Below, one piece after another: positions 1-5,906 of a DNA stretch of 5,906 nucleotides. The position numbers and the translations under genes were made by a program. The notes beneath the pieces are model-generated. The model was not told the origin of the DNA and made no database searches. It was given only the letters and a program-made list of their open reading frames with translations. The stretch is from an uncultured archaeon (lineage in GTDB: Archaea > Iainarchaeota > Iainarchaeia > Iainarchaeales > 0-14-0-20-30-16): contig CAZMCX010000050.1 of assembly GCA_964565125.1 (NCBI GenBank), forward strand, positions 1 through 5,906. Reading direction: 5' to 3'. The number at the start of each line of letters is the position of its first letter. The stretch's first letter is position 1.

Positions 1-3000
1 TGCTGCTCTTGTGCTCGAACTGTTATCAACATCATCATCTGACAAGTTCTGTTTCTTCTGCAAATTTTTTATGTTATACCAACAATCAAGATTTAAGTCG
101 TTTTCACAGGACTTAATTGATTTCAAAACATTCAAATCTGTTAAACTTTCTGGAACTATATCCTTGTTAAATAAGTACATTATATCAGAGTTTCCATCTT
201 CAGTCATTTGTAAGAACGGATTAAAACTAAAAAGCCCATAAGCAGTTGTTGTTTTTACATTTGTTTTAATATCATAAATTTTTTTATAGCCCCACTGGTC
301 TTTTGTCCTTACCCATAAATCTAAAGCATAAGCACCTGGAATTCCTGGTCTAAAAATTTCTATTTTTTTGCTTTCATTTCCTTTAAGCTCAAGGCCAGTT
401 ATAAAGTCATCCACAGAGAATGAAAGTTTTGCATCACTATTTTCATTTCCACAGCCTGCGCTAAAAGTAGGTGGTATATTATTATCTTTACAAGCCCTCA
501 CCCATAATGTAGAACCCGGGCATTCGTTCTTTATTTCAATTTCAGTAGGGGGTTCGTGAACACTATTATATATTAATTCTGGTGTTGCCAAGAATTCCAA
601 ACCATCAAAAATTTCAAAATCTATTTTCTCTATTTTTTCTCCATCTTTATCATATATCCCAATACAGTTTGCAATGTTCACAGTATTAACATTTATTTCC
701 ACCACATTAGACTCTAATTTTGCAGGCCCAGATTCTGTTGTAACATACCCCAAAATCTTTATCCCAATTTTCTGGCTACCCTTTGTAGATCTTGGGCTTA
801 TACCAAGCACAGCATTCATTTCAGGATTAGTTAATTCTGTTTTTAGATTTTCTAAAATCAATGTTGGAATTCTAACATCAACGGTTGTAGAAATTTTATC
901 TGCAATTGTTATATTATATCCTGCAACACTATAGCTTCCGTCTTCCAAAGTCAAAAGTAAAAATACCTTATCAAATATTGCAGGAATTCGCTTTTCGGAA
1001 TCCAGTAAACAAGTGTTTACTATTTGAAGTTCAGCCATTGTTGATTTTTCCAAATAGAAATCCTTTTCAACCATATTTATTTGTAGACAATCTCCTGCGT
1101 TATCAGGATAAGAATCTATTTTAAATTTTATTGAAAATGGGATCTCTAAAACTACAGATCCCGGGCTTGTATCCAAAGTCATTTTTATTATTCCACTCAT
1201 TTTGTCAGCATACACACTATTGTTAAAATTATCGCCCACCATTACCATAAAGAAGTCTTGTAAAATTGTCTCATTTACACCCATGTCTTCTTCAATTCCG
1301 TAAATTATTTTTCCTTTATACTCCGATTCAAAATATCCTTCCATTGCTTCCCAATTCAAAAGATATTTAGAATCTTCAGAATATTTATCAAATTGTAAAT
1401 CAATCCCACTTATTATTACATCTTGTGCACTTGCATTTGCAACTGTCAAGTCAGCAGTTATTGCTTTTTCTTTTGGGTATGAAATTTCTATATCCAATTT
1501 TTCAGGATTAAAAGAAATCATTTTTTCTACTACTTTAAGATCAGGAATTAAATCATTGTGTTTATAGCTTTTATATCCCTCTTTAAAAGCCAATATCTGA
1601 ATAAATGTGTTAGGCTCAAAAGGAGGAAGCTCACAAACAGTTTTTCCTTCATAATCAGTTAACAAAGCGCCACAATTTATTGCTTTGTATACAGAATCTA
1701 TTGGTGCTTTTTTCAAAACAATAACTTGAACATCTTTTACTATACTTTCAAGTTCATCATAAACATATATTTTTAAATTCTGAACTTTATTTGGAACTAA
1801 TAAAGTATTCGGGAACAACTTTATACTCAAAGAATGTGGTGCATCAGGAACAAACCAATAATTAAATGCTGGTGCGCCTCTTACTGGAAATTGTTTATCA
1901 GAATCTATAATCCAAAAATTAATGTAGTTTCCTTTATCATAAGTCGGAACCAAGTCAAAATTTCCAGATATTGTTTTATTTGCAAAGAACTTTGTAAAAT
2001 TATACTTATCCACCAAAACAGTCTTTGCAGAACTATATTCCGCACTTTCTGTATTAGGTCCACTTAAAGAAATATTTGAAAACTCAAAGAAATTATAATT
2101 ATCAACATCCCCTTCAACAGTCATGAAGCTTGTGTCTGGGCTTGTGGCATTATGTGCTTTCAGATACCCATTCTCAATTTCTCCCTCTGTTGCAGTTATT
2201 CCATTCATTAAAGTAAATTCAGTTTTATACTTCTTTCCAATAATCAAAGGATATTTCTGCTCGTTTTTGTTTACATTTCCAATATTTTCAACATAAATTT
2301 CGTTTTCTACGTCCAATAAAGCTGTTTTTGCGCAAAACATATCACTACAATCCAAGCTGCTACCTAAAAAATATTCTTTCTCTTCACTTGAATTTATTTG
2401 TTCATCAAGATATAATTTCCATTTTACATTCAATGGTTCGTACAAAGATACAGAACTATCATTTCTAACCATTACTTTCACATAAATTCTGTAAATTCCT
2501 TTTTCTATTGTTGCAGAATCCACACCTTTAGTCCATTCTGCATTCAGAATTTTTCCTTTGTCTTCGGTATAGATTGTTTTTTCCAAGTCTTCATACATTA
2601 CATCAACTTGTGACGAAGAACTACTATCAAAAATAAACAAAGAATCCTGTTCTACTGTTGTTGTTTCTTTTCCAGTAATATATTCAAATTTCATTTCATC
2701 TACATCAGTATAAAGATGAATATCATACCCCAAATACACTACTTTATCAACTTCAAAATTTGTTTTTTCTCCGCCAAGTGCATCAAATACACCCAAGAAT
2801 TCAACTCTTGCTTGTTCGTCATCTTCTTTAAGTTTTTGAGGTTCCAAATTAGCATTTATTTCCCAAATATTTGAAGGAGTTAAGAACCTGGCTTCACTAT
2901 AAAATGGCATATAGCCTTCTTTAGATGCAACAAAGAATTTTTCTGTTCCTGCCTTTAATGAAAATAATAATTTCCCAGCATTATCTGTTAGCTTTGTTCC

Positions 3001-4590
3001 TGATTTTGTTGTCATCCCTTTGGTATAAAAATCAATTTGTGCAAATGGCACAGGATAATCCAACTCATCCAAAACACTAATATTAAAACTCCCATTTCCA
3101 AGATAAATTACAACAATTAATTCCTCTTCAGGCATTTCAGTTCCCGGCTCAAATATAATAGTTACCTGCTCGCTCATTCCTTCCGAATATCCTTTATAAA
3201 CCCTAAAAGAATAAGCCCCTTCTTCAGTTATAGGCAACTGGGTATCTCCATTTTTATCTGTTTCAGGAAAATTATAACTATAAATTTCAAATCCGCTAAA
3301 CAAGTCTTGTACAAACGCTTTTGCGCCTTGTATTGGAGATTCAGATTCATCAACTACATGTAATTTAACCAAAACAGCATTAAAAGAAGTTATCTCTTTC
3401 AAATCCAATTTTATTTCTGTTGTTCCTTCGTTAAACTCAACTTCTTTATTAGATAATACCCCAAATTCATTACTATCTGGTGTTAAATCAATCAGGTATT
3501 TTCCGTATGTGAATACCGGAAGAAATGCAATCCCTTTGTCACTATTTCCGGAATCCAATATTGTGTTATCCAAACTTTTTAATTTATATGAAAATTCTGT
3601 GTTTGCATCAACGTTTAGTACAACATTTCCCAGAGTATTTTTCATAACTGTAAAATCAACATTTATTCCTGCTTCGTTCATAACTATTGTTTTTGTTTGT
3701 GGCAAATATCCTGCAACATTCACTGCCACATCATAACTTCCAACAGATAATTGCTTTGACTTAAAATATCCATTCAAAGAATTCCCCGCCTCAACAGGAC
3801 TTACTAAATCGTAAGAATCATAAATTGTTACCTGACCATCTTTTGAACCAAGATTATCAGAAATTTTTACAACAATATTTGCAGTAGGTATGCTAGTTTT
3901 TCCTTGGTTATTAATACTTGTAGAACTCTCAAAGTTGATTACACAAGAAGTTGAATCACAAACTTCGTTTTTAGAATTATAACCCTCTGCGCTTGCAGAT
4001 ATATTTAAAAGCCCACAATCTTCAGGCACAGTTATCTCGATGTATCCATTATTAGTACTTTTACTTGCTTCAGAATCTGGTATTGAAATATCATCACACT
4101 CAAACATAGCGCTTACAGACTCTACATCTAAATAACCAGATTTAAAAAATATCTGTATTGGAATATTTTTCTTCTTTTTATCTAGCAAAACTTTTATTTT
4201 ATTACTAAAAGAATATTCTTTGTCTATCGAATACTTAGAAGTATCAACTTTTATTCTATATAAATCACTCTTTGGTATCTTTACTATTGCTGACCCGCCA
4301 TCAGATTCAAAGGAATAATTCTTATCCCCAATATACATACTAAAAGGAATTTTTTCCTTTAAGCTCAACCCATCATTAAAAAAAGATACATTTATTTGAG
4401 CATAAGAAGGAATCACAGCCCAAATTATTAAAGCAATTATGATTACAAACAAGATAAAAAACAAAATCATAGACGGCATTACCTTATCAATCTTATCTGC
4501 AATTGCCTGTGCAGGAAAAATCGTATCAAGTTTATCTATCATTTTATAGTATTTATCTTCTAATCCAAAATAAAAATCTCGCAAACCCAT
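1..4590 (-). CDS. Giant membrane-anchored cell-surface protein (at least 1530 aa, C-terminus beyond the left window edge) with tandem carboxypeptidase-regulatory-like/PEGA-type beta-sandwich modules. Absent from the supplied ORF track.
   Basis: Manual scan of all plus-strand triplets in phase 1 from 1 to 4701 found no tta, cta or tca. The first upstream stop is tta at 4702-4704. The first in-frame ATG is at 4590-4588, and no in-frame ATG, GTG or TTG lies between 4701 and 4591. The translation starts MGLRDFYFGLEDKYYKMIDKLDTIFPAQAIADKIDKVMPSMILFFILFVIIIALIIWAVIPSYAQINVSFFNDG and reaches the edge as ...CWYNIKNLQKKQNLSDDDVDNSSSTRAA. The sequence is protein-like throughout, with repeated beta-sandwich signatures and paired cysteines. 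At about 70% A+T a random frame should hit a stop roughly every 12 codons. The longest plus-strand ORF across this span is 86 aa. Confidence 0.92.
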   Translation of the reverse strand, partial: MGLRDFYFGLEDKYYKMIDKLDTIFPAQAIADKIDKVMPSMILFFILFVIIIALIIWAVIPSYAQINVSFFNDGLSLKEKIPFSMYIGDKNYSFESDGGSAIVKIPKSDLYRIKVDTSKYSIDKEYSFSNKIKVLLDKKKKNIPIQIFFKSGYLDVESVSAMFECDDISIPDSEASKSTNNGYIEITVPEDCGLLNISASAEGYNSKNEVCDSTSCVINFESSTSINNQGKTSIPTANIVVKISDNLGSKDGQVTIYDSYDLVSPVEAGNSLNGYFKSKQLSVGSYDVAVNVAGYLPQTKTIVMNEAGINVDFTVMKNTLGNVVLNVDANTEFSYKLKSLDNTILDSGNSDKGIAFLPVFTYGKYLIDLTPDSNEFGVLSNKEVEFNEGTTEIKLDLKEITSFNAVLVKLHVVDESESPIQGAKAFVQDLFSGFEIYSYNFPETDKNGDTQLPITEEGAYSFRVYKGYSEGMSEQVTIIFEPGTEMPEEELIVVIYLGNGSFNISVLDELDYPVPFAQIDFYTKGMTTKSGTKLTDNAGKLLFSLKAGTEKFFVASKEGYMPFYSEARFLTPSNIWEINANLEPQKLKEDDEQARVEFLGVFDALGGEKTNFEVDKVVYLGYDIHLYTDVDEMKFEYITGKETTTVEQDSLFIFDSSSSSQVDVMYEDLEKTIYTEDKGKILNAEWTKGVDSATIEKGIYRIYVKVMVRNDSSVSLYEPLNVKWKLYLDEQINSSEEKEYFLGSSLDCSDMFCAKTALLDVENEIYVENIGNVNKNEQKYPLIIGKKYKTEFTLMNGITATEGEIENGYLKAHNATSPDTSFMTVEGDVDNYNFFEFSNISLSGPNTESAEYSSAKTVLVDKYNFTKFFANKTISGNFDLVPTYDKGNYINFWIIDSDKQFPVRGAPAFNYWFVPDAPHSLSIKLFPNTLLVPNKVQNLKIYVYDELESIVKDVQVIVLKKAPIDSVYKAINCGALLTDYEGKTVCELPPFEPNTFIQILAFKEGYKSYKHNDLIPDLKVVEKMISFNPEKLDIEISYPKEKAITADLTVANASAQDVIISGIDLQFDKYSEDSKYLLNWEAMEGYFESEYKGKIIYGIEEDMGVNETILQDFFMVMVGDNFNNSVYADKMSGIIKMTLDTSPGSVVLEIPFSIKFKIDSYPDNAGDCLQINMVEKDFYLEKSTMAELQIVNTCLLDSEKRIPAIFDKVFLLLTLEDGSYSVAGYNITIADKISTTVDVRIPTLILENLKTELTNPEMNAVLGISPRSTKGSQKIGIKILGYVTTESGPAKLESNVVEINVNTVNIANCIGIYDKDGEKIEKIDFEIFDGLEFLATPELIYNSVHEPPTEIEIKNECPGSTLWVRACKDNNIPPTFSAGCGNENSDAKLSFSVDDFITGLELKGNESKKIEIFRPGIPGAYALDLWVRTKDQWGYKKIYDIKTNVKTTTAYGLFSFNPFLQMTEDGNSDIMYLFNKDIVPESLTDLNVLKSIKSCENDLNLDCWYNIKNLQKKQNLSDDDVDNSSSTRAA
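1555..1782 (-). other. Fifth carboxypeptidase-regulatory-like module (about aa 937-1012), separated from the first four by about 350 aa of unassigned sequence
   Basis: QNLKIYVYDELESIVKDVQVIVLKKAPIDSVYKAINCGALLTDYEGKTVCELPPFEPNTFIQILAFKEGYKSYKHN. It shows the same V-x-D ... T-D-x-x-G ... G-Y pattern, here with a Cys pair (C973/C986). Confidence 0.55.
2842..3879 (-). other. Four tandem carboxypeptidase-regulatory-like / PEGA-like beta-sandwich modules within the giant CDS (about aa 238-315, 320-397, 405-481, 501-583)
   Basis: Each ~80-aa unit follows the family pattern: hydrophobic strand, then D, then a small loop, then a T/S-D-x-x-G turn, then G-x-Y, then a hydrophobic strand ending G-Y. Examples: VKLHVVDESESPIQGAKAFVQDL...ETDKNGDTQLPITEEGAYSFRVYKGYSE; FNISVLDELDYPVPFAQIDFYTKG...KLTDNAGKLLFSLKAGTEKFFVASKEGYMP; IVVKISDNLGSKDGQVTIYDS...LSVGSYDVAVNVAGYLP. 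The second unit (aa 320-397) is the weakest match. Confidence 0.6.
4411..4470 (-). other. Single transmembrane / signal-anchor helix of the giant protein (aa 41-60, MILFFILFVIIIALIIWAVI), followed by PSYA-Q
   Basis: Twenty consecutive hydrophobic residues with no charge. They are preceded by a charged 40-aa segment ending in KIDKV and followed by P-S-Y-A|Q, which resembles a small-x-small signal peptidase site. Everything downstream is polar, beta-rich and contains paired Cys, as expected for an ectodomain. Confidence 0.75.
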
Positions 4591-4611
4591 GAAAACACCA
4601 GAAGCAATCGC

Positions 4612-4629
4612 TGTATATATATAATTATA
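4612..4629 (-). promoter_or_regulatory. TATA-like element (minus-strand TATAATTATATATATACA) upstream of the giant CDS
   Basis: The minus strand reads TATAATTATATATATACAGCGATTGCTTCTGGTGTTTTC ATG. The TATA core lies about 28-31 nt upstream of ATG 4590 and there is no Shine-Dalgarno motif. The register inside the alternating TA run is ambiguous. Confidence 0.4.
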
Positions 4630-4660
4630 GGTATTAAAAAGCTTATCTTTCCAACCTTTT

Positions 4661-4667
4661 AAAAAAA
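4661..4667 (-). terminator. T7 run (minus strand) 13 nt after the paralog 1 stop; oligo-T terminator candidate
   Basis: Plus-strand A7 at 4661-4667. The minus strand reads TAG CTAACTATGTCC TTTTTTT AAAAGG. It lies upstream of the TATA-like element of the giant gene. Confidence 0.4.
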
Positions 4668-4679
4668 GGACATAGTTAG

Positions 4680-5159
4680 CTATAGATCCATTGTAAAATA
4701 ATTAGAATTCCTGTGCTGTTTAAAGCCCATTTTTTTATAAAAATCATAAGAGTCTGCTGCAGAATAAGCTTGTATTTCTTCAAGCCCTTTTTCTCTTGCA
4801 AACCCAATTATTTTTCCAATCAACAAACGCCCGATTCCCAAATGCCTTAAGGCACTATTTTTTAAGAATCGTGATCCAATTTGTAGATTTCTTATTACCA
4901 AATAACTTCCTGTCCACCCAACCTCAATATGTGCACTTCCAAGTTCTCGTGGAAGAAGAACTACATAATGCCTTTCATGCTCCGGGCCCACAATCCTTGT
5001 TTGAGCATATAATTCTCTTGTCAGTTCCACTTTTCTTCTTCGTAGTTCTTCTACAGCAAGGCGATATTTCATTCCCTGTTCTTTGTTTTTGCTTTCTATA
5101 GCCCTTGCAAGATCTTCTACTTTCCGTTCGTGGATTTCTTTTGCTTTAAACTCAATCAT
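4680..5159 (-). CDS. Small GNAT-family N-acetyltransferase (159 aa) with a charged helical N-terminal extension; paralog 1
   Basis: Track ORF. The acetyl-CoA motif A (R/Q-x-x-G-x-G/A) is present as RHLGIG at 4830-4847, followed by RLLIGKIIGFAREKG (alpha3), EEIQAYSA (beta5) and DFYKKMGFKQ (alpha4/motif B). ATG at 5159, stop TAG at 4682-4680. The first ~50 aa (MIEFKAKEIHERKVEDLARAIESKNKEQGMKYRLAVEELRRRKVELTREL) are strongly charged and helix-like. Confidence 0.85.
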   Translation of the reverse strand: MIEFKAKEIHERKVEDLARAIESKNKEQGMKYRLAVEELRRRKVELTRELYAQTRIVGPEHERHYVVLLPRELGSAHIEVGWTGSYLVIRNLQIGSRFLKNSALRHLGIGRLLIGKIIGFAREKGLEEIQAYSAADSYDFYKKMGFKQHRNSNYFTMDL

Positions 5160-5180
5160 AAAAGAATAGGATTAAGGAGT

Positions 5181-5188
5181 AATATAAA
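5181..5188 (-). promoter_or_regulatory. TATA-box-like element (minus-strand TTTATATT) for GNAT paralog 1, spaced for a leaderless or near-leaderless transcript
   Basis: The minus strand reads ...AGCAGCTAAG TTTATATT ACTCCTTAATCCTATTCTTTT ATG. The centre of the box is about 26 nt upstream of the A of ATG 5159. No Shine-Dalgarno motif lies between box and ATG. Archaeal TATA boxes sit about 26-27 nt upstream of the transcription start. Confidence 0.5.
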
Positions 5189-5198
5189 CTTAGCTGCT

Positions 5199-5218
5199 AA
5201 AAAAACAGTTGAAAAAAA
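5199..5218 (-). terminator. Two T7 runs (minus strand) directly after the paralog 2 stop; archaeal-type oligo-T terminator candidate
   Basis: Plus-strand A7 runs at 5199-5205 and 5212-5218. The minus strand reads TAA TATTATG TTTTTTT CAACTG TTTTTTT AGC. No stable hairpin precedes the runs. Confidence 0.45.
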
Positions 5219-5225
5219 CATAATA

Positions 5226-5684
5226 TTATAATTTTATAAAAAAATAGTATGAATTTGGATCGACCTGTTTAAAGCCTAATTTTTTATAAAAATCAACAGC
5301 AAGTGGTGCAGAATTAACTCCAATATATTTAATCCCTCGCCTTCTAGCAAATTCTATTACCTTTTTAATTATCAATCTACCAAGACCTAAACCCCTTAAA
5401 GAACTTCCTTCAAAATGTGGACCAATTTTAACGCGCTTTATTGTCAAGATCCCCATATCTGAAACATTAAACTCAGCAAATCCAATATTGTGTGGAAGAT
5501 TAACTAAATATTTTCTACCATAACCCAAATGAACTATTTTTATATTATTCGAAAGCACCCCGCTAAGCTCATTTTTTCTTTTATGTAATTCCTCAACAGC
5601 ACACCGATATTTCAAATTTAACTCTGGATCTTTACAATTTAAATATAGTTCATGCTTTTTTCTTTTTAATGGCTTTTCTATCAT
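5226..5684 (-). CDS. Small GNAT-family N-acetyltransferase (152 aa from ATG 5684; 162 aa if ATG 5714 is used); paralog 2
   Basis: Track ORF 5226..5714. Motif A is RGLGLG at 5379-5396, followed by RLIIKKVIEFARRRG and DFYKKLGFKQ. I prefer the internal ATG at 5684 for two reasons. The product then begins MIE- like the paralog (MIEKPLKR vs MIEFKAKE). A GAGGA Shine-Dalgarno-like motif also lies at 5695-5691, 6 nt upstream. Stop TAA at 5228-5226. Confidence 0.8.
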   Translation of the reverse strand: MIEKPLKRKKHELYLNCKDPELNLKYRCAVEELHKRKNELSGVLSNNIKIVHLGYGRKYLVNLPHNIGFAEFNVSDMGILTIKRVKIGPHFEGSSLRGLGLGRLIIKKVIEFARRRGIKYIGVNSAPLAVDFYKKLGFKQVDPNSYYFFIKL

Positions 5685-5776
5685 AAATAATCCTCGATAC
5701 TTCCTCTGTAACATTCTAGCCTTTTTAGTGTTTTCTGGGATACCAATAGCTTTTCTTCTTTTTTTAGCAAACCAAT

Positions 5777-5793
5777 GTGGACTTTATGTCCAC
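5777..5793. repeat. Perfect 6-bp hairpin GTGGAC-TTTAT-GTCCAC, followed on the plus strand by a T-rich tract
   Basis: gtggac (5777-5782), tttat (5783-5787), gtccac (5788-5793), then tatttctttcttt. This has the form of a plus-strand intrinsic terminator, but no plus-strand gene lies upstream of it in the window. Confidence 0.8.
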
Positions 5794-5820
5794 TATTTCT
5801 TTCTTTGGGGGAACTTACGG

Positions 5821-5847
5821 CTTTCTTTCTTTTTTAAAGAAAGAAAG
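5821..5847. repeat. Perfect 12-bp inverted repeat, (CTTT)3 / (AAAG)3, with a TTT loop
   Basis: ctttctttcttt (5821-5832), ttt (5833-5835), aaagaaagaaag (5836-5847). All 12 positions pair as Watson-Crick. The repeat directly abuts the GC-rich island. Its function is unknown. Confidence 0.9.
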
Positions 5848-5906
5848 GCATAGTACGACCTCGGTGGGACCCGAACACCGCTTTTGAAAAAAGCAGTGGC
5901 GCAAAA
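5847..5906. ncRNA. GC-rich, hairpin-forming segment truncated by the right window edge; possible fragment of a structural RNA, identity and strand unresolved
   Basis: By my count 5847-5902 has 32 G+C of 56 nt (57%) and 5847-5880 has 22 of 34 (65%), against a background near 30%. Hairpin H1 is cggtg (5862-5866) / caccg (5876-5880) with a 9-nt loop. Hairpin H2 is gctttt (5880-5885) / aaaagc (5889-5894), extendable by cac (5876-5878) / gtg (5896-5898). The strings GGCATAG and CCCGAACACCG resemble 5S rRNA loop A and loop C motifs, but the helix II pairing expected for 5S is not visible. Confidence 0.3.

What the first reader, a model, noticed from the sequence alone, without database searches (positions are those of the whole stretch)
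1..4701. A 1567-codon open frame on the minus strand is missing from the ORF track
About 78% of the window is a single minus-strand reading frame that the supplied six-frame track does not list. I split the plus strand into phase-1 triplets line by line from 1 to 4701 and found no tta, cta or tca. The frame closes only at tta 4702-4704 on the upstream side and is still open at position 1. At about 70% A+T a random frame would meet a stop roughly every dozen codons, so chance is effectively excluded. From ATG 4590 the product is at least 1530 aa, and its true length is unknown because the C-terminus lies outside the window. Anyone relying on the track would see only 63-86-aa antisense shadows here and would call the region non-coding or junk.
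Basis: seen in the sequence. Interest (0 to 1): 0.85.

Follow-up and report, generated by a model that had tools for sequence, protein, structure and literature searches.

The report
Giant archaeal surface-protein gene, cut short
The long unlisted reading frame is a real gene: the first 1,530 codons of a roughly 2,400-residue membrane-anchored surface protein of a tiny DPANN (Diapherotrites-type) archaeon. The ORF track missed it only because the gene runs off the window edge. The protein belongs to a large family that is already in databases but has never been characterised.

Summary
The minus-strand frame 4701→1 has no stop in 1,567 codons (chance about 1e-63). The other five frames carry 51–220 stops each.

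The frame is absent from the track only because the ORF lister drops ORFs that run off an end. It is a real gene. dN/dS against an 80%-identical ortholog is 0.12. Four other assemblies reproduce the locus at 99.3–100% identity, and gene callers there start it at the same ATG (4590).

Full-length orthologs are 2,412–2,472 aa, so about 880 C-terminal residues lie outside the window. The inferred layout is:
- a conserved 40-aa N-terminal motif and a transmembrane anchor;
- a ~1,470-aa almost all-β ectodomain (CarboxypepD_reg/Ig/MG-like β-sandwiches), which is the part the window holds;
- outside the window, a Gly/Ala-rich hydrophobic hairpin and an ~820-aa domain with near-invariant residues (C-D-x-x-Q and others) and no known relative.

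The family has at least 419 cluster representatives at E≤1e-30. Full-length members are nearly all 2,300–2,700 aa. Named members are Diapherotrites, Micrarchaeota or unclassified archaeal MAGs, labelled "hypothetical" or "carboxypeptidase regulatory-like". Genes sit in co-oriented tandem sets of 2–3 paralogs.

The most likely role is a cell-surface stalk or adhesion protein; this is inferred, not shown. It is a new member of a known kind, of modest interest.

The parts
1..4590 (-). Partial CDS: N-terminal 1,530 codons of a ~2,400-aa giant membrane-anchored surface protein. The 3' end is cut by the window edge.
   Evidence: Open frame. 80/60/35% identity, colinear, to the full-length P0001/P0002/P0003 of 2,412-2,472 aa. 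dN/dS 0.12. Same start called in other assemblies.
4474..4590 (-). Conserved N-terminal motif, residues 1-39 (MGLRDFYFGLEDKYYKMIDKLD...IDKVMPS). Presumed cytoplasmic extension ahead of the anchor.
   Evidence: Ten orthologs and paralogs that are otherwise about 22-27% identical overall show 55% mean column identity here, with E11, Y15 and P39 invariant. A profile of the motif finds 27 further proteins, mostly contig-edge fragments.
4411..4467 (-). Transmembrane signal-anchor helix, residues 42-60 (ILFFILFVIIIALIIWAVI).
   Evidence: Kyte-Doolittle mean of 3.5 over 19 residues, and the only such segment in the 1,530 aa. An N-terminal TM is present in 107 of 108 full-length family members.
1..4407 (-). 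Ectodomain 1, residues 62-1530: acidic (pI 4.5) and almost all-β, a chain of β-sandwich domains with 16 Cys at pairwise-close positions.
   Evidence: AlphaFold2 model of residues 331-1530 is nearly all β-strand (mean pLDDT 63). Foldseek matches Ig/MG-domain arrays: A2ML1, TEP1, C3/C5, PrgB, pilins, SdrD. pI and Cys positions. No internal sequence repeats.
3649..3774 (-). Best Pfam stretch, residues 273-314: carboxypeptidase regulatory-like (transthyretin-like β-sandwich) domain.
   Evidence: PF13620, E=6.4e-11, 42.9 bits against a gathering cut-off of 32.3.
4611..4650 (-). Conserved A/T-rich promoter-like block (AAAGATAAGCTTTTTAATACCTATAATTATATATATACAG). Its TATA-rich run ends 23 nt before the ATG.
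   Evidence: Near-identical in the loci of the 80% and 60% orthologs, while the flanking intergenic DNA diverges. Reading it as an archaeal BRE/TATA with a leaderless mRNA is inference.
4591..4701 (-). In-frame open stretch upstream of the start codon with no ATG. This is intergenic DNA, not coding.
   Evidence: no M before codon 39. It contains the conserved promoter block. Ortholog N-termini begin at MGL.
4680..5159 (-). Neighbour: GNAT acetyltransferase, 159 aa. Context only; no functional link shown.
   Evidence: PF13673/PF00583 above cut-off. A GNAT also sits directly upstream of the ortholog in L005 but not in L006.
5226..5714 (-). Neighbour: second GNAT acetyltransferase, 162 aa, a tandem paralog of the first.
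   Evidence: PF13673, E=4e-10. 45% identical to the first GNAT.

Best explanation
Window 1-4590 (minus strand) is the 5' two-thirds of a chromosomal gene of a low-GC DPANN archaeon of the Diapherotrites/Iainarchaeota type. The gene encodes a giant cell-surface protein of about 2,400 aa.

Shown:
- The protein starts with a 40-aa motif conserved across the family, followed by one strongly hydrophobic helix that anchors it in the membrane.
- The next ~1,470 residues, which is all the window contains, are an acidic, cysteine-paired, almost purely β chain of diverged β-sandwich domains of CarboxypepD_reg, Ig and macroglobulin-MG type.

From full-length orthologs, outside the window:
- The chain then returns to the membrane through a Gly/Ala-rich hydrophobic hairpin.
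- It ends in an ~820-aa domain with near-invariant residues and no known relative.

Inferred mechanism:
- The gene has its own conserved A/T-rich archaeal promoter and probably a leaderless mRNA.
- The N-terminal helix acts as a Sec signal-anchor with the N-terminus inside.
- The β-sandwich chain forms a long extracellular stalk or arch that carries the conserved C-terminal domain on the cell surface.
- Together with 1-2 paralogous giants encoded directly downstream, it builds the cell's outer contact layer, serving attachment to partner cells or particles.
- The conserved N-terminal extension probably plays a role like the extended signal-peptide regions of very large bacterial secreted proteins, handling the export of an oversized passenger.

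The confidence given (0.6) is for the whole statement including the inferred surface-contact role. For the identity alone, a real gene for a ~2,400-aa membrane-anchored β-sandwich protein of this family, it is about 0.95.
For: Real gene:
- Open frame and codon periodicity.
- dN/dS of 0.12 and 0.23.
- Four other assemblies at 99.3-100% identity, with the same start called there.

Length and architecture:
- Orthologs P0001 (2,412 aa), P0002 (2,436 aa) and P0003 (2,472 aa).
- TM1 at residues 42-60, and in P0001 a hydrophobic hairpin at about 1547-1595, beginning right where the window ends.

Extracellular β-sandwich chain:
- PF13620 above the gathering score.
- Paralogs also hit Big_1, bMG3, MG4, SpaA and SdrD_B.
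- The AF2 model is nearly all β, and Foldseek hits are Ig/MG arrays, pilins and adhesins at E down to 4e-15.
- pI is 4.5; 16 Cys lie at pairwise-close positions, and 8 of them are invariant.

Family:
- 1,725 / 801 / 419 cluster representatives at E≤1e-3 / 1e-10 / 1e-30. The top 150 are colinear from residue ~1, and full-length ones are 2,300-2,700 aa.
- Names where given: Candidatus Diapherotrites, Micrarchaeota, 'archaeon', 'Candidatus ainarchaeum'.

Context:
- Chromosomal archaeal neighbours: thermosome, PUA/DUF1947, S8e, RNR.
- Tandem co-oriented paralog sets with gaps as small as 13 nt.
- The N-terminal motif is more conserved than the rest of the protein.
- The promoter block is conserved.

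Precedent: giant membrane-anchored Ig-rich surface proteins are proposed to mediate host contact in other DPANN archaea (PMC10266531, PMC6642349; the Sukunaarchaeum preprint 10.1101/2025.05.02.651781).
Against: - No experiment or expression data exist for any member, so surface location and adhesion are inferred only from sequence features and fold.
- Both AF2 models are of modest confidence (mean pLDDT 63 and 61, built from 7-8-sequence alignments). Foldseek TM-scores are low (≤0.3), so the hits show domain type, not overall architecture.
- The strongly hydrophobic mid-protein hairpin is seen in only about 35% of full-length members at my threshold. Elsewhere it is a weaker Gly-rich segment, so the topology may differ between members.
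- Whether the N-terminal helix is cleaved (there is a possible S-Y-A|Q site) was not tested.
- The GNAT neighbour is not consistently linked: it is present in L005 and absent in L006.
Confidence: 0.6

Rival explanations
1. It is the main structural envelope protein rather than an adhesin. In this reading it is an S-layer-like canopy or stalk protein, and the 2-3 tandem paralogs are lattice and anchor subunits, as SlaA/SlaB are in Sulfolobales.
For: - Membrane anchor plus a long acidic β-sandwich ectodomain.
- Length and architecture are strikingly uniform across hundreds of members, as expected for a structural part.
- Operon-like paralog sets.
- A SlaA/SlaB S-layer assembly chain (8qox_B) is among the Foldseek hits, though only at rank 47.
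- Strong purifying selection.
Against: - No sequence similarity to any described S-layer family.
- Known archaeal S-layer proteins are generally C-terminally anchored and mostly smaller (own knowledge).
- N-glycosylation sequons are not clearly enriched: 18 against 13.9±3.4 expected.
- Abundance is unknown.
Confidence: 0.25
2. It is a host-engaging device. The Gly/Ala-rich hydrophobic segment with the conserved P..GW acts as a membrane-inserting, fusion-peptide-like or glycine-zipper element. The invariant C-D-x-x-Q C-terminal domain binds a partner cell, possibly covalently, and helps form the cell-cell bridges seen in DPANN symbioses.
For: - Every giant examined has a Gly-rich hydrophobic stretch at residues ~1550-1760. 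In many it is too weakly hydrophobic for a standard TM helix.
- Near-invariant C1869-D-x-x-Q1873, D2080, D2089 and R2189 in 113 members suggest a functional site rather than mere scaffold.
- The weak Foldseek hits of the C-terminal model include lipid-binding β-cups: GM2 activator and MD-1, E about 1e-3.
Against: - All of this lies outside the window.
- In the window's own clade the hairpin is hydrophobic enough (KD 2.5) to be a plain TM hairpin.
- The C-terminal model is of low confidence, and the β-cup hits have TM-scores of 0.3-0.44 with rmsd of 9-10 Å.
- The four near-invariant Cys fit two disulfides equally well.
- The C-D-x-x-Q motif matches neither the C-x-E-Q thioester motif nor, as I recall it, the [YFL]C-hydrophobic-[DE] motif.
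Confidence: 0.1
3. It is an archaeal α2-macroglobulin-like protease trap anchored to the membrane.
For: The top Foldseek hits are A2ML1, TEP1, C3/C4/C5, CD109 and E. coli A2M. Paralogs hit Pfam bMG3 and MG4.
Against: - No C-x-E-Q thioester motif in the window protein or in P0001-P0003.
- No α-helical thioester domain appears in either model.
- TM-scores are ≤0.1-0.16, which means only the repeated MG/Ig-type β-sandwich is shared.
- No A2M Pfam or NCBIfam family passes threshold for the window protein.
Confidence: 0.03
4. It is not a gene: a chance open frame, an assembly chimera or a dead pseudogene.
For: Only that the window is a metagenomic fragment and its left 2.5 kb is not covered by the other near-identical contigs.
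Against: - P about 1e-63 for the open frame.
- dN/dS 0.12.
- Colinear with three full-length orthologs over all 1,530 aa.
- Hundreds of family members.
Confidence: 0.01

Closest known systems
Deposited orthologs: P0001, 'MAG: carboxypeptidase-like regulatory domain-containing protein [Candidatus ainarchaeum sp.]', 2,412 aa (contig JAQTTP010000003.1); and PIU22524.1, MFH1255678.1, MEW6295807.1, MBI4052687.1 from Candidatus Diapherotrites MAGs
   Same: The same protein family. P0001 is 80% identical and colinear over all 1,530 residues. It has the same N-terminal motif, the same TM anchor and the same promoter block upstream.
   Different: The window copy is a different species or strain and is truncated by the window edge. 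None of these entries has a described function, and they are named only after one weak Pfam domain.
Giant membrane-anchored surface proteins of Nanohaloarchaeota ('SPEARE', SVXNc_0300, BNXNv_0298; PMC6642349, PMC10266531)
   Same: Very large DPANN proteins with a membrane anchor and an acidic ectodomain rich in Ig-like domains, taking a large share of a small genome, and proposed to mediate host contact.
   Different: They are 2-4 times longer (5,000-9,400 aa), carry a Sec signal peptide, WD40-like propellers and a VirB4/TraG-like ATPase domain, and are single genes (PMC10266531). Pfam and NCBIfam find none of those domains here. This family instead comes as 2-3 tandem paralogs of about 2,400 aa with its own conserved N- and C-terminal modules. 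I did not compare the sequences directly.
α2-macroglobulin / complement / TEP family (MG-domain arrays)
   Same: Long runs of MG/Ig-type β-sandwich domains. These are the best Foldseek hits, and bMG3/MG4 Pfam hits occur in paralogs.
   Different: No thioester motif, no helical thioester domain, and no recognisable bait region or CUB domain. The protein is membrane-anchored by an N-terminal helix.
Gram-positive Ig-fold adhesins and pilins (SdrD, PrgB, BcpA, RrgB) and archaeal S-layer proteins (SlaA/SlaB)
   Same: Beads-on-a-string β-sandwich stalks projecting from the cell surface; Foldseek hits at E of 1e-13 to 1e-7.
   Different: There is no LPXTG sortase signal and no PGF-CTERM; ortholog C-termini end in ...C(x)10-12FWN.... 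There are no detectable sequence repeats and no sequence similarity to these families.
Extended signal-peptide regions of very large bacterial secreted proteins (ESPR of autotransporters and TpsA proteins; YSIRK signal peptides) — a functional analogy from my own knowledge
   Same: A conserved sequence motif precedes the hydrophobic core at the N-terminus of unusually large exported proteins, and it is more conserved than the passenger.
   Different: The motif is a different sequence in a different domain of life. It has not been shown whether the helix is cleaved or stays as an anchor. This is an analogy, not homology.

Membership tests
Pfam PF13620 CarboxypepD_reg (domain-level membership) | Whole-protein score above Pfam's gathering cut-off (32.3 bits) | tested here: met
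   42.9 bits, E=6.4e-11, best stretch at residues 273-314. The orthologs and paralogs tested score 37.7-110 bits.
Uncharacterised ~2,400-aa giant membrane protein family of Diapherotrites-type archaea (defined here) | Colinear similarity from residue 1 across more than 1,000 residues to full-length members | tested here: met
   80/60/35% identity over residues 1-1530 to P0001/P0002/P0003. The profile finds 419 representatives at E≤1e-30, aligned from position ~1.
Uncharacterised ~2,400-aa giant membrane protein family of Diapherotrites-type archaea (defined here) | N-terminal motif (..FY..LEDKYY..LD....IDKV.PS) followed by a TM helix | tested here: met
   Residues 1-60 of the window protein. 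An N-terminal TM is present in 107 of 108 full-length members, and a strict regular expression for the motif matches 74 of 108.
Uncharacterised ~2,400-aa giant membrane protein family of Diapherotrites-type archaea (defined here) | Mid-protein Gly/Ala-rich hydrophobic segment, and a C-terminal domain with C-D-x-x-Q ... R-x-G-Y-G ... C(x)nFWN | not testable with these tools
   These parts lie beyond window position 1. They are present in the 80% ortholog P0001 and near-invariant in 113 members.
α2-macroglobulin / thioester-containing proteins | C-x-E-Q thioester motif within an α-helical thioester domain | tested here: not met
   No C.EQ in the window protein or in P0001-P0003. Neither AF2 model contains an α/α-barrel domain.
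α2-macroglobulin / thioester-containing proteins | Array of MG-type β-sandwich domains | tested here: inconclusive
   Foldseek hits to A2ML1, TEP1, C3 and A2M at E of 1e-15 to 1e-11, but with TM-scores ≤0.16. bMG3 and MG4 pass the Pfam cut-off only in paralogs, not in the window protein.
Nanohaloarchaeal SPEARE / giant secretion-associated surface proteins | VirB4/TraG-like ATPase domain, WD40-like propellers and a length above 5,000 aa (PMC10266531) | tested here: not met
   Pfam and NCBIfam find no ATPase or WD40 domain in the window protein or in the full-length orthologs of about 2,400 aa.
Sortase- or archaeosortase-anchored surface proteins | C-terminal LPXTG or PGF-CTERM sorting signal | tested here: not met
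   Ortholog C-termini end ...LCINSTSQTMDVFWNEYAQQN and similar, with no terminal TM or sorting motif. The window's own C-terminus is missing.
Archaeal S-layer proteins | Forms the paracrystalline surface lattice; very abundant | not testable with these tools
   This needs microscopy or proteomics. No sequence match to any described S-layer family.

The most novel reading that the evidence does not exclude
The family may be a previously undescribed, operon-encoded, two- or three-paralog surface machine of Diapherotrites/Micrarchaeota-type archaea. In this reading the conserved Gly-rich hydrophobic element and the invariant C-D-x-x-Q C-terminal domain insert into, or covalently attach to, a partner cell's envelope. 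That would make it a new class of archaeal cell-cell contact or fusion apparatus, with a dedicated conserved N-terminal export or anchoring signal.
Probability: 0.1. Interest if true: 0.75.

Novelty: new member of a known kind. Interest (0 to 1): 0.3.

Why it matters
For the scan, the practical lesson is that ORF tracks which drop edge-open frames can hide most of a window. Here about 78% of the window was a bona fide gene.

Biologically, the gene adds one more member to a large family of uniform ~2,400-aa membrane proteins of DPANN archaea that no one appears to have studied. The family has at least 419 clusters at 50% identity.

These organisms spend a notable share of a small genome on tandem sets of such genes; one related contig (L006) carries more than 22 kb of them. 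That suggests the proteins are central to how these cells build their surface or contact partners.

The conserved N-terminal motif and the C-terminal domain with no known relative are concrete, testable handles. Neither is new in kind: giant Ig-rich surface proteins are already a recognised DPANN theme.

Tried and rejected
- **tRNA and Rfam scans** of the window and of two overlapping contigs gave nothing above noise. The weak RAGATH-19 and snoRNA hits (E 0.05-0.5, far below gathering scores) are rejected.
- **NCBIfam** gave no family for the giant.
- **PDB sequence searches**, with single sequences and with a profile, found no relative.
- **Foldseek on the C-terminal model** against PDB and BFVD returned only generic β-sandwich hits and weak β-cup hits. 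I do not treat these as informative.
- **Thioester (A2M-like) reading** is rejected because the motif and the domain are absent.
- **Tandem DNA repeats and internal protein repeats**: none found, so this is not a recently amplified repeat protein.
- **First representative-library job** failed because the profile exceeded 1,200 positions. It was repeated with a shorter alignment.
- **Motif-only word-index search** returned only short contig-edge fragments. It was useful only to show that the motif recurs.
- **GNAT genes as functional partners**: not supported. A GNAT is present upstream in L005, but only a ~30-nt remnant is left in L006.
- **Literature searches** found no paper describing this family.
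Full report
**Observation.** Translating window 4704→1 on the minus strand gives a TAA stop at 4704-4702 and then 1,567 codons with no stop, still open at position 1.
- The first ATG is at 4590, so the partial product is 1,530 aa.
- With this strand's composition a stop is expected every 11.2 codons, which gives P(open) of about 1e-63.
- The other five frames over the same span carry 51-220 stops, and 200 shuffles never exceeded 116 open codons.
- GC is 41%, 31% and 22% at codon positions 1, 2 and 3.
- The frame is missing from the ORF list because that tool, by its own description, omits ORFs that run off an end.

**It is a real, conserved gene.**
- Looking up the upstream GNAT protein found four other assemblies carrying the locus: ENA ERZ27293349, JGI 3300025021, JGI 3300005235 and Logan SRR5435972.
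- These contigs match window 2540-5906 at 99.3-100% nucleotide identity without gaps.
- Their gene callers start the large gene 90 nt after the GNAT stop, which is ATG 4590.
- The protein is colinear over all 1,530 residues with P0001 (80% identity, 2,412 aa), P0002 (60%, 2,436 aa) and P0003 (35%, 2,472 aa). This excludes a chimera and shows that about 880 C-terminal residues lie outside the window.
- NCBI labels P0001 [quoted passage not shown].
- Nei-Gojobori dN/dS is 0.12 against the P0001 gene and 0.23 against the P0002 gene.

**Start and promoter.**
- The in-frame stretch 4701-4591 has no ATG.
- It holds a 40-nt A/T-rich block (4650-4611, AAAGATAAGCTTTTTAATACCTATAATTATATATATACAG). This block is almost identical upstream of the 80% and 60% orthologs, while neighbouring intergenic DNA diverges.
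- Its TATA-rich run ends 23 nt before the ATG.
- I read this as an archaeal BRE/TATA promoter giving a leaderless or near-leaderless mRNA. That is inference; the bacterial σ70 scanner was not appropriate and was not used.

**Anatomy of the part inside the window.**
- Residues 1-39 form a motif (MGLRDFYFGLEDKYYKMIDKLD…IDKVMPS). It is better conserved among ten orthologs and paralogs (55% mean column identity; E11, Y15 and P39 invariant) than the proteins are overall, at about 22-27%.
- Residues 42-60 are the only strongly hydrophobic helix, with a Kyte-Doolittle mean of 3.5.
- Residues 62-1530 are acidic (pI 4.5). They carry 16 cysteines at pairwise-close positions, 8 of them invariant among five homologs, and 18 N-x-S/T sequons against 13.9±3.4 expected.
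- Pfam finds only CarboxypepD_reg above threshold (42.9 bits against 32.3). Big_1 appears below threshold, and NCBIfam finds nothing.
- An AlphaFold2 model of residues 331-1530 (7-sequence alignment, mean pLDDT 63.4, pTM 0.34) is almost entirely β-strand. One short helical patch sits at about residues 1072-1120, and the last ~85 residues are low-confidence and partly helical.
- Foldseek against the PDB returns 143 hits at E≤1e-3. All are multi-β-sandwich proteins: A2ML1, TEP1, C3/C4/C5, CD109, E. coli α2-macroglobulin, PrgB Ig-like domains, mastigoneme, pilins BcpA and RrgB, SdrD, integrins, and a SlaA/SlaB S-layer assembly chain (8qox_B). TM-scores are low, at ≤0.3.
- I take this as evidence of domain type, a chain of Ig/MG/transthyretin-like sandwiches, and not of overall homology.
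- There are no tandem DNA repeats and no internal protein self-hits, so the domains are old and diverged.

**What lies beyond the window, from orthologs.**
- Immediately after the point where the window ends, P0001 has two adjacent Gly/Ala-rich hydrophobic segments: …GVGVAGVGVIILIGVALCASSVPVAGWIIGGAAAIAAGTFAIISALAP…, at residues ~1547-1595. P0002 and P0003 have the same.
- About 35% of full-length members have such a segment at my hydrophobicity threshold.
- The other giants I examined have a weaker Gly-rich stretch with a conserved P..GW at residues ~1550-1760.
- The last ~820 residues have no Pfam, NCBIfam or PDB relative.
- Yet across 113 full-length members they contain near-invariant positions (P0001 numbering): C1822, W1845, C1863, C1869-D1870-x-x-Q1873, D2080, D2089-F, G2133, Y2135, R2189, Y2192-G, C2393 and W2405-N.
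- The AF2 model of this part is modest (pLDDT 60.8; the core at model residues 220-580, which is P0001 ~1815-2175, scores 52-88 and mostly above 70). It is mixed α/β.
- Foldseek against PDB and BFVD gives only generic β-sandwich hits and weak β-cup hits (GM2 activator, MD-1; E about 1e-3, TM 0.3-0.44, rmsd 9-10 Å). I do not rely on these.
- The most economical topology is: N-terminus inside, TM1, ectodomain 1 (the window's part), a helical hairpin back through the membrane, and the C-terminal domain outside. This is inferred, not shown.

**Family and distribution.**
- A profile of residues 1-1095 from five sequences, searched against 1.84 billion cluster representatives, found 1,725 proteins at E≤1e-3, 801 at ≤1e-10 and 419 at ≤1e-30.
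- The best 150 all score E<1e-74 and align from their own N-terminus. Those that are not contig-truncated cluster tightly at 2,300-2,700 aa, with a median of 2,483 and a few up to about 3,250.
- Where sources name them, they come from Candidatus Diapherotrites MAGs, two partial Micrarchaeota entries, or unclassified "archaeon". They are called "hypothetical protein" or "carboxypeptidase regulatory-like domain-containing protein".
- Flanking genes on related contigs are ordinary archaeal chromosomal genes: thermosome, PUA/DUF1947, ribosomal protein S8e, NrdR with ribonucleotide reductase, and ScpA.
- The library I could search holds no paper describing this family.

**Gene neighbourhood.** The giants occur as co-oriented tandem paralogs.
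- L006 has three: 2,603 aa, 2,412 aa (the window's ortholog) and more than 2,429 aa.
- L005 has two: 2,439 aa (ORF from GTG; equals P0002, 2,436 aa) and 2,227 aa.
- The P0003 contig has three (2,472, 2,192 and 2,018 aa) separated by only 13 nt.
- L007 has three (2,818, 2,629 and 2,504 aa) interleaved with small ORFs.
- Paralogs share the N-terminal ~600 residues at 25-28% identity and share the extreme C-terminal motif.
- By synteny, a second giant probably follows just beyond window position 1 (inference).
- The two GNAT genes upstream (45% identical to each other) are matched by one GNAT in L005. In L006 only the last ~30 nt of a GNAT 3' end remain. I treat them as neighbours, not partners.

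**Mechanism I commit to.**
- The protein is a signal-anchored surface protein. Its β-sandwich chain forms a long extracellular stalk or, if the hairpin is a true membrane re-entry, an arch. It displays the conserved C-terminal domain at the cell surface and acts with its tandem paralogs in surface architecture or attachment.
- The conserved N-terminal extension is best explained as an export or anchoring signal for an oversized passenger. It is functionally analogous to bacterial extended signal-peptide regions (own knowledge; analogy only).
- My confidence that this is a real ~2,400-aa membrane or surface protein gene is about 0.95.
- My confidence that its role is surface contact or adhesion rather than a purely structural envelope layer is about 0.55-0.6.

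**Rivals.**
- An S-layer-like structural protein (0.25) fits the uniform size and the operon structure, and cannot be excluded without microscopy or proteomics.
- A host-membrane-inserting or covalent-adhesion device (0.1) is the most novel reading. It rests on the Gly-rich element and the invariant C-D-x-x-Q motif.
- An α2-macroglobulin-like trap (0.03) fails the thioester-motif and thioester-domain tests.
- A non-gene or artefact (≤0.01) is refuted.

**Verdict.**
- The finding is correct, but it mainly exposes a limitation of the ORF track.
- The gene is a new member of an existing, unstudied family within a recognised theme: giant Ig-rich surface proteins of DPANN archaea (PMC6642349, PMC10266531).
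- I score interest at 0.3. The family-level features (tandem triads, the N-terminal motif, the orphan C-terminal domain) deserve a follow-up but lie largely outside this window.

Noticed in passing
window 4680-5159 (-) and 5226-5714 (-): Two tandem GNAT acetyltransferase paralogs, 159 and 162 aa and 45% identical, lie directly upstream on the same strand. Only the C-terminal ~50 residues match GNAT models, and the N-terminal halves have no match.
   Followed up: partly
L006 9880-9920 compared with window 4690-4720: In the 80% ortholog's locus the GNAT gene is gone, but about 30 nt of its 3' end (CACAGAAACTCTAATTATTTTACA) survive next to the conserved promoter. This is a deletion or replacement scar; an opposite-strand ORF with a weak, sub-threshold HEPN-like hit sits there instead.
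   Followed up: partly
window 4611-4650 (-): A 40-nt A/T-rich block is conserved almost base-for-base upstream of orthologs that are only 60-80% identical in protein. It is probably an archaeal BRE/TATA promoter, and its spacing to the ATG suggests a leaderless mRNA.
   Followed up: partly
window 5792-5898: A cluster of nested inverted repeats (TTTCTTTCTTT / AAAGAAAGAAA; CACCGCTTTT / AAAAGCAGTG) lies in the 190 nt upstream of the first GNAT. It has no tRNA and no Rfam family above noise (best hit RAGATH-19, E=0.5). Its function is unknown; it may be a terminator of an upstream gene or a regulatory hairpin.
   Followed up: partly
L006 51-7862, 10001-17239, 17340-24626; L005 9992-17311, 17408-24091; L007 1-6781, 10001-17890, 18480-25994: Giant paralogs occur as co-oriented tandem sets of two or three, with gaps as small as 13 nt on the P0003 contig. 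In L006 they occupy more than 22 kb of one contig.
   Followed up: partly
P0001 residues 1547-1595 (L006 ~14640-14785); equivalent stretches in all giants examined: A Gly/Ala-rich hydrophobic segment with a conserved P..GW starts exactly where the window ends. It is a strong TM-like hairpin in the window's clade and only weakly hydrophobic in other paralogs.
   Followed up: partly
P0001 residues 1822-2406 (L006 ~15460-17220): This is an orphan C-terminal domain with near-invariant C, W, C, C-D-x-x-Q, D, D, R, Y-G, C and W-N positions across 113 full-length family members. It has no Pfam, NCBIfam or PDB relative.
   Followed up: partly
P0004 residues ~1460-1580: One distant paralog carries a Lys/Glu/Gln-rich coiled-coil-like insert after its mid-protein hydrophobic stretch, with weak SMC/BRE1-type hits. 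The window's clade lacks it.
   Followed up: no
L007 6800-9907 and 17898-18359; L005 24108-24533: Small to medium ORFs with no Pfam match (559, 475, 153 and 141 aa) sit between or after the giant genes. They may be accessory components.
   Followed up: no
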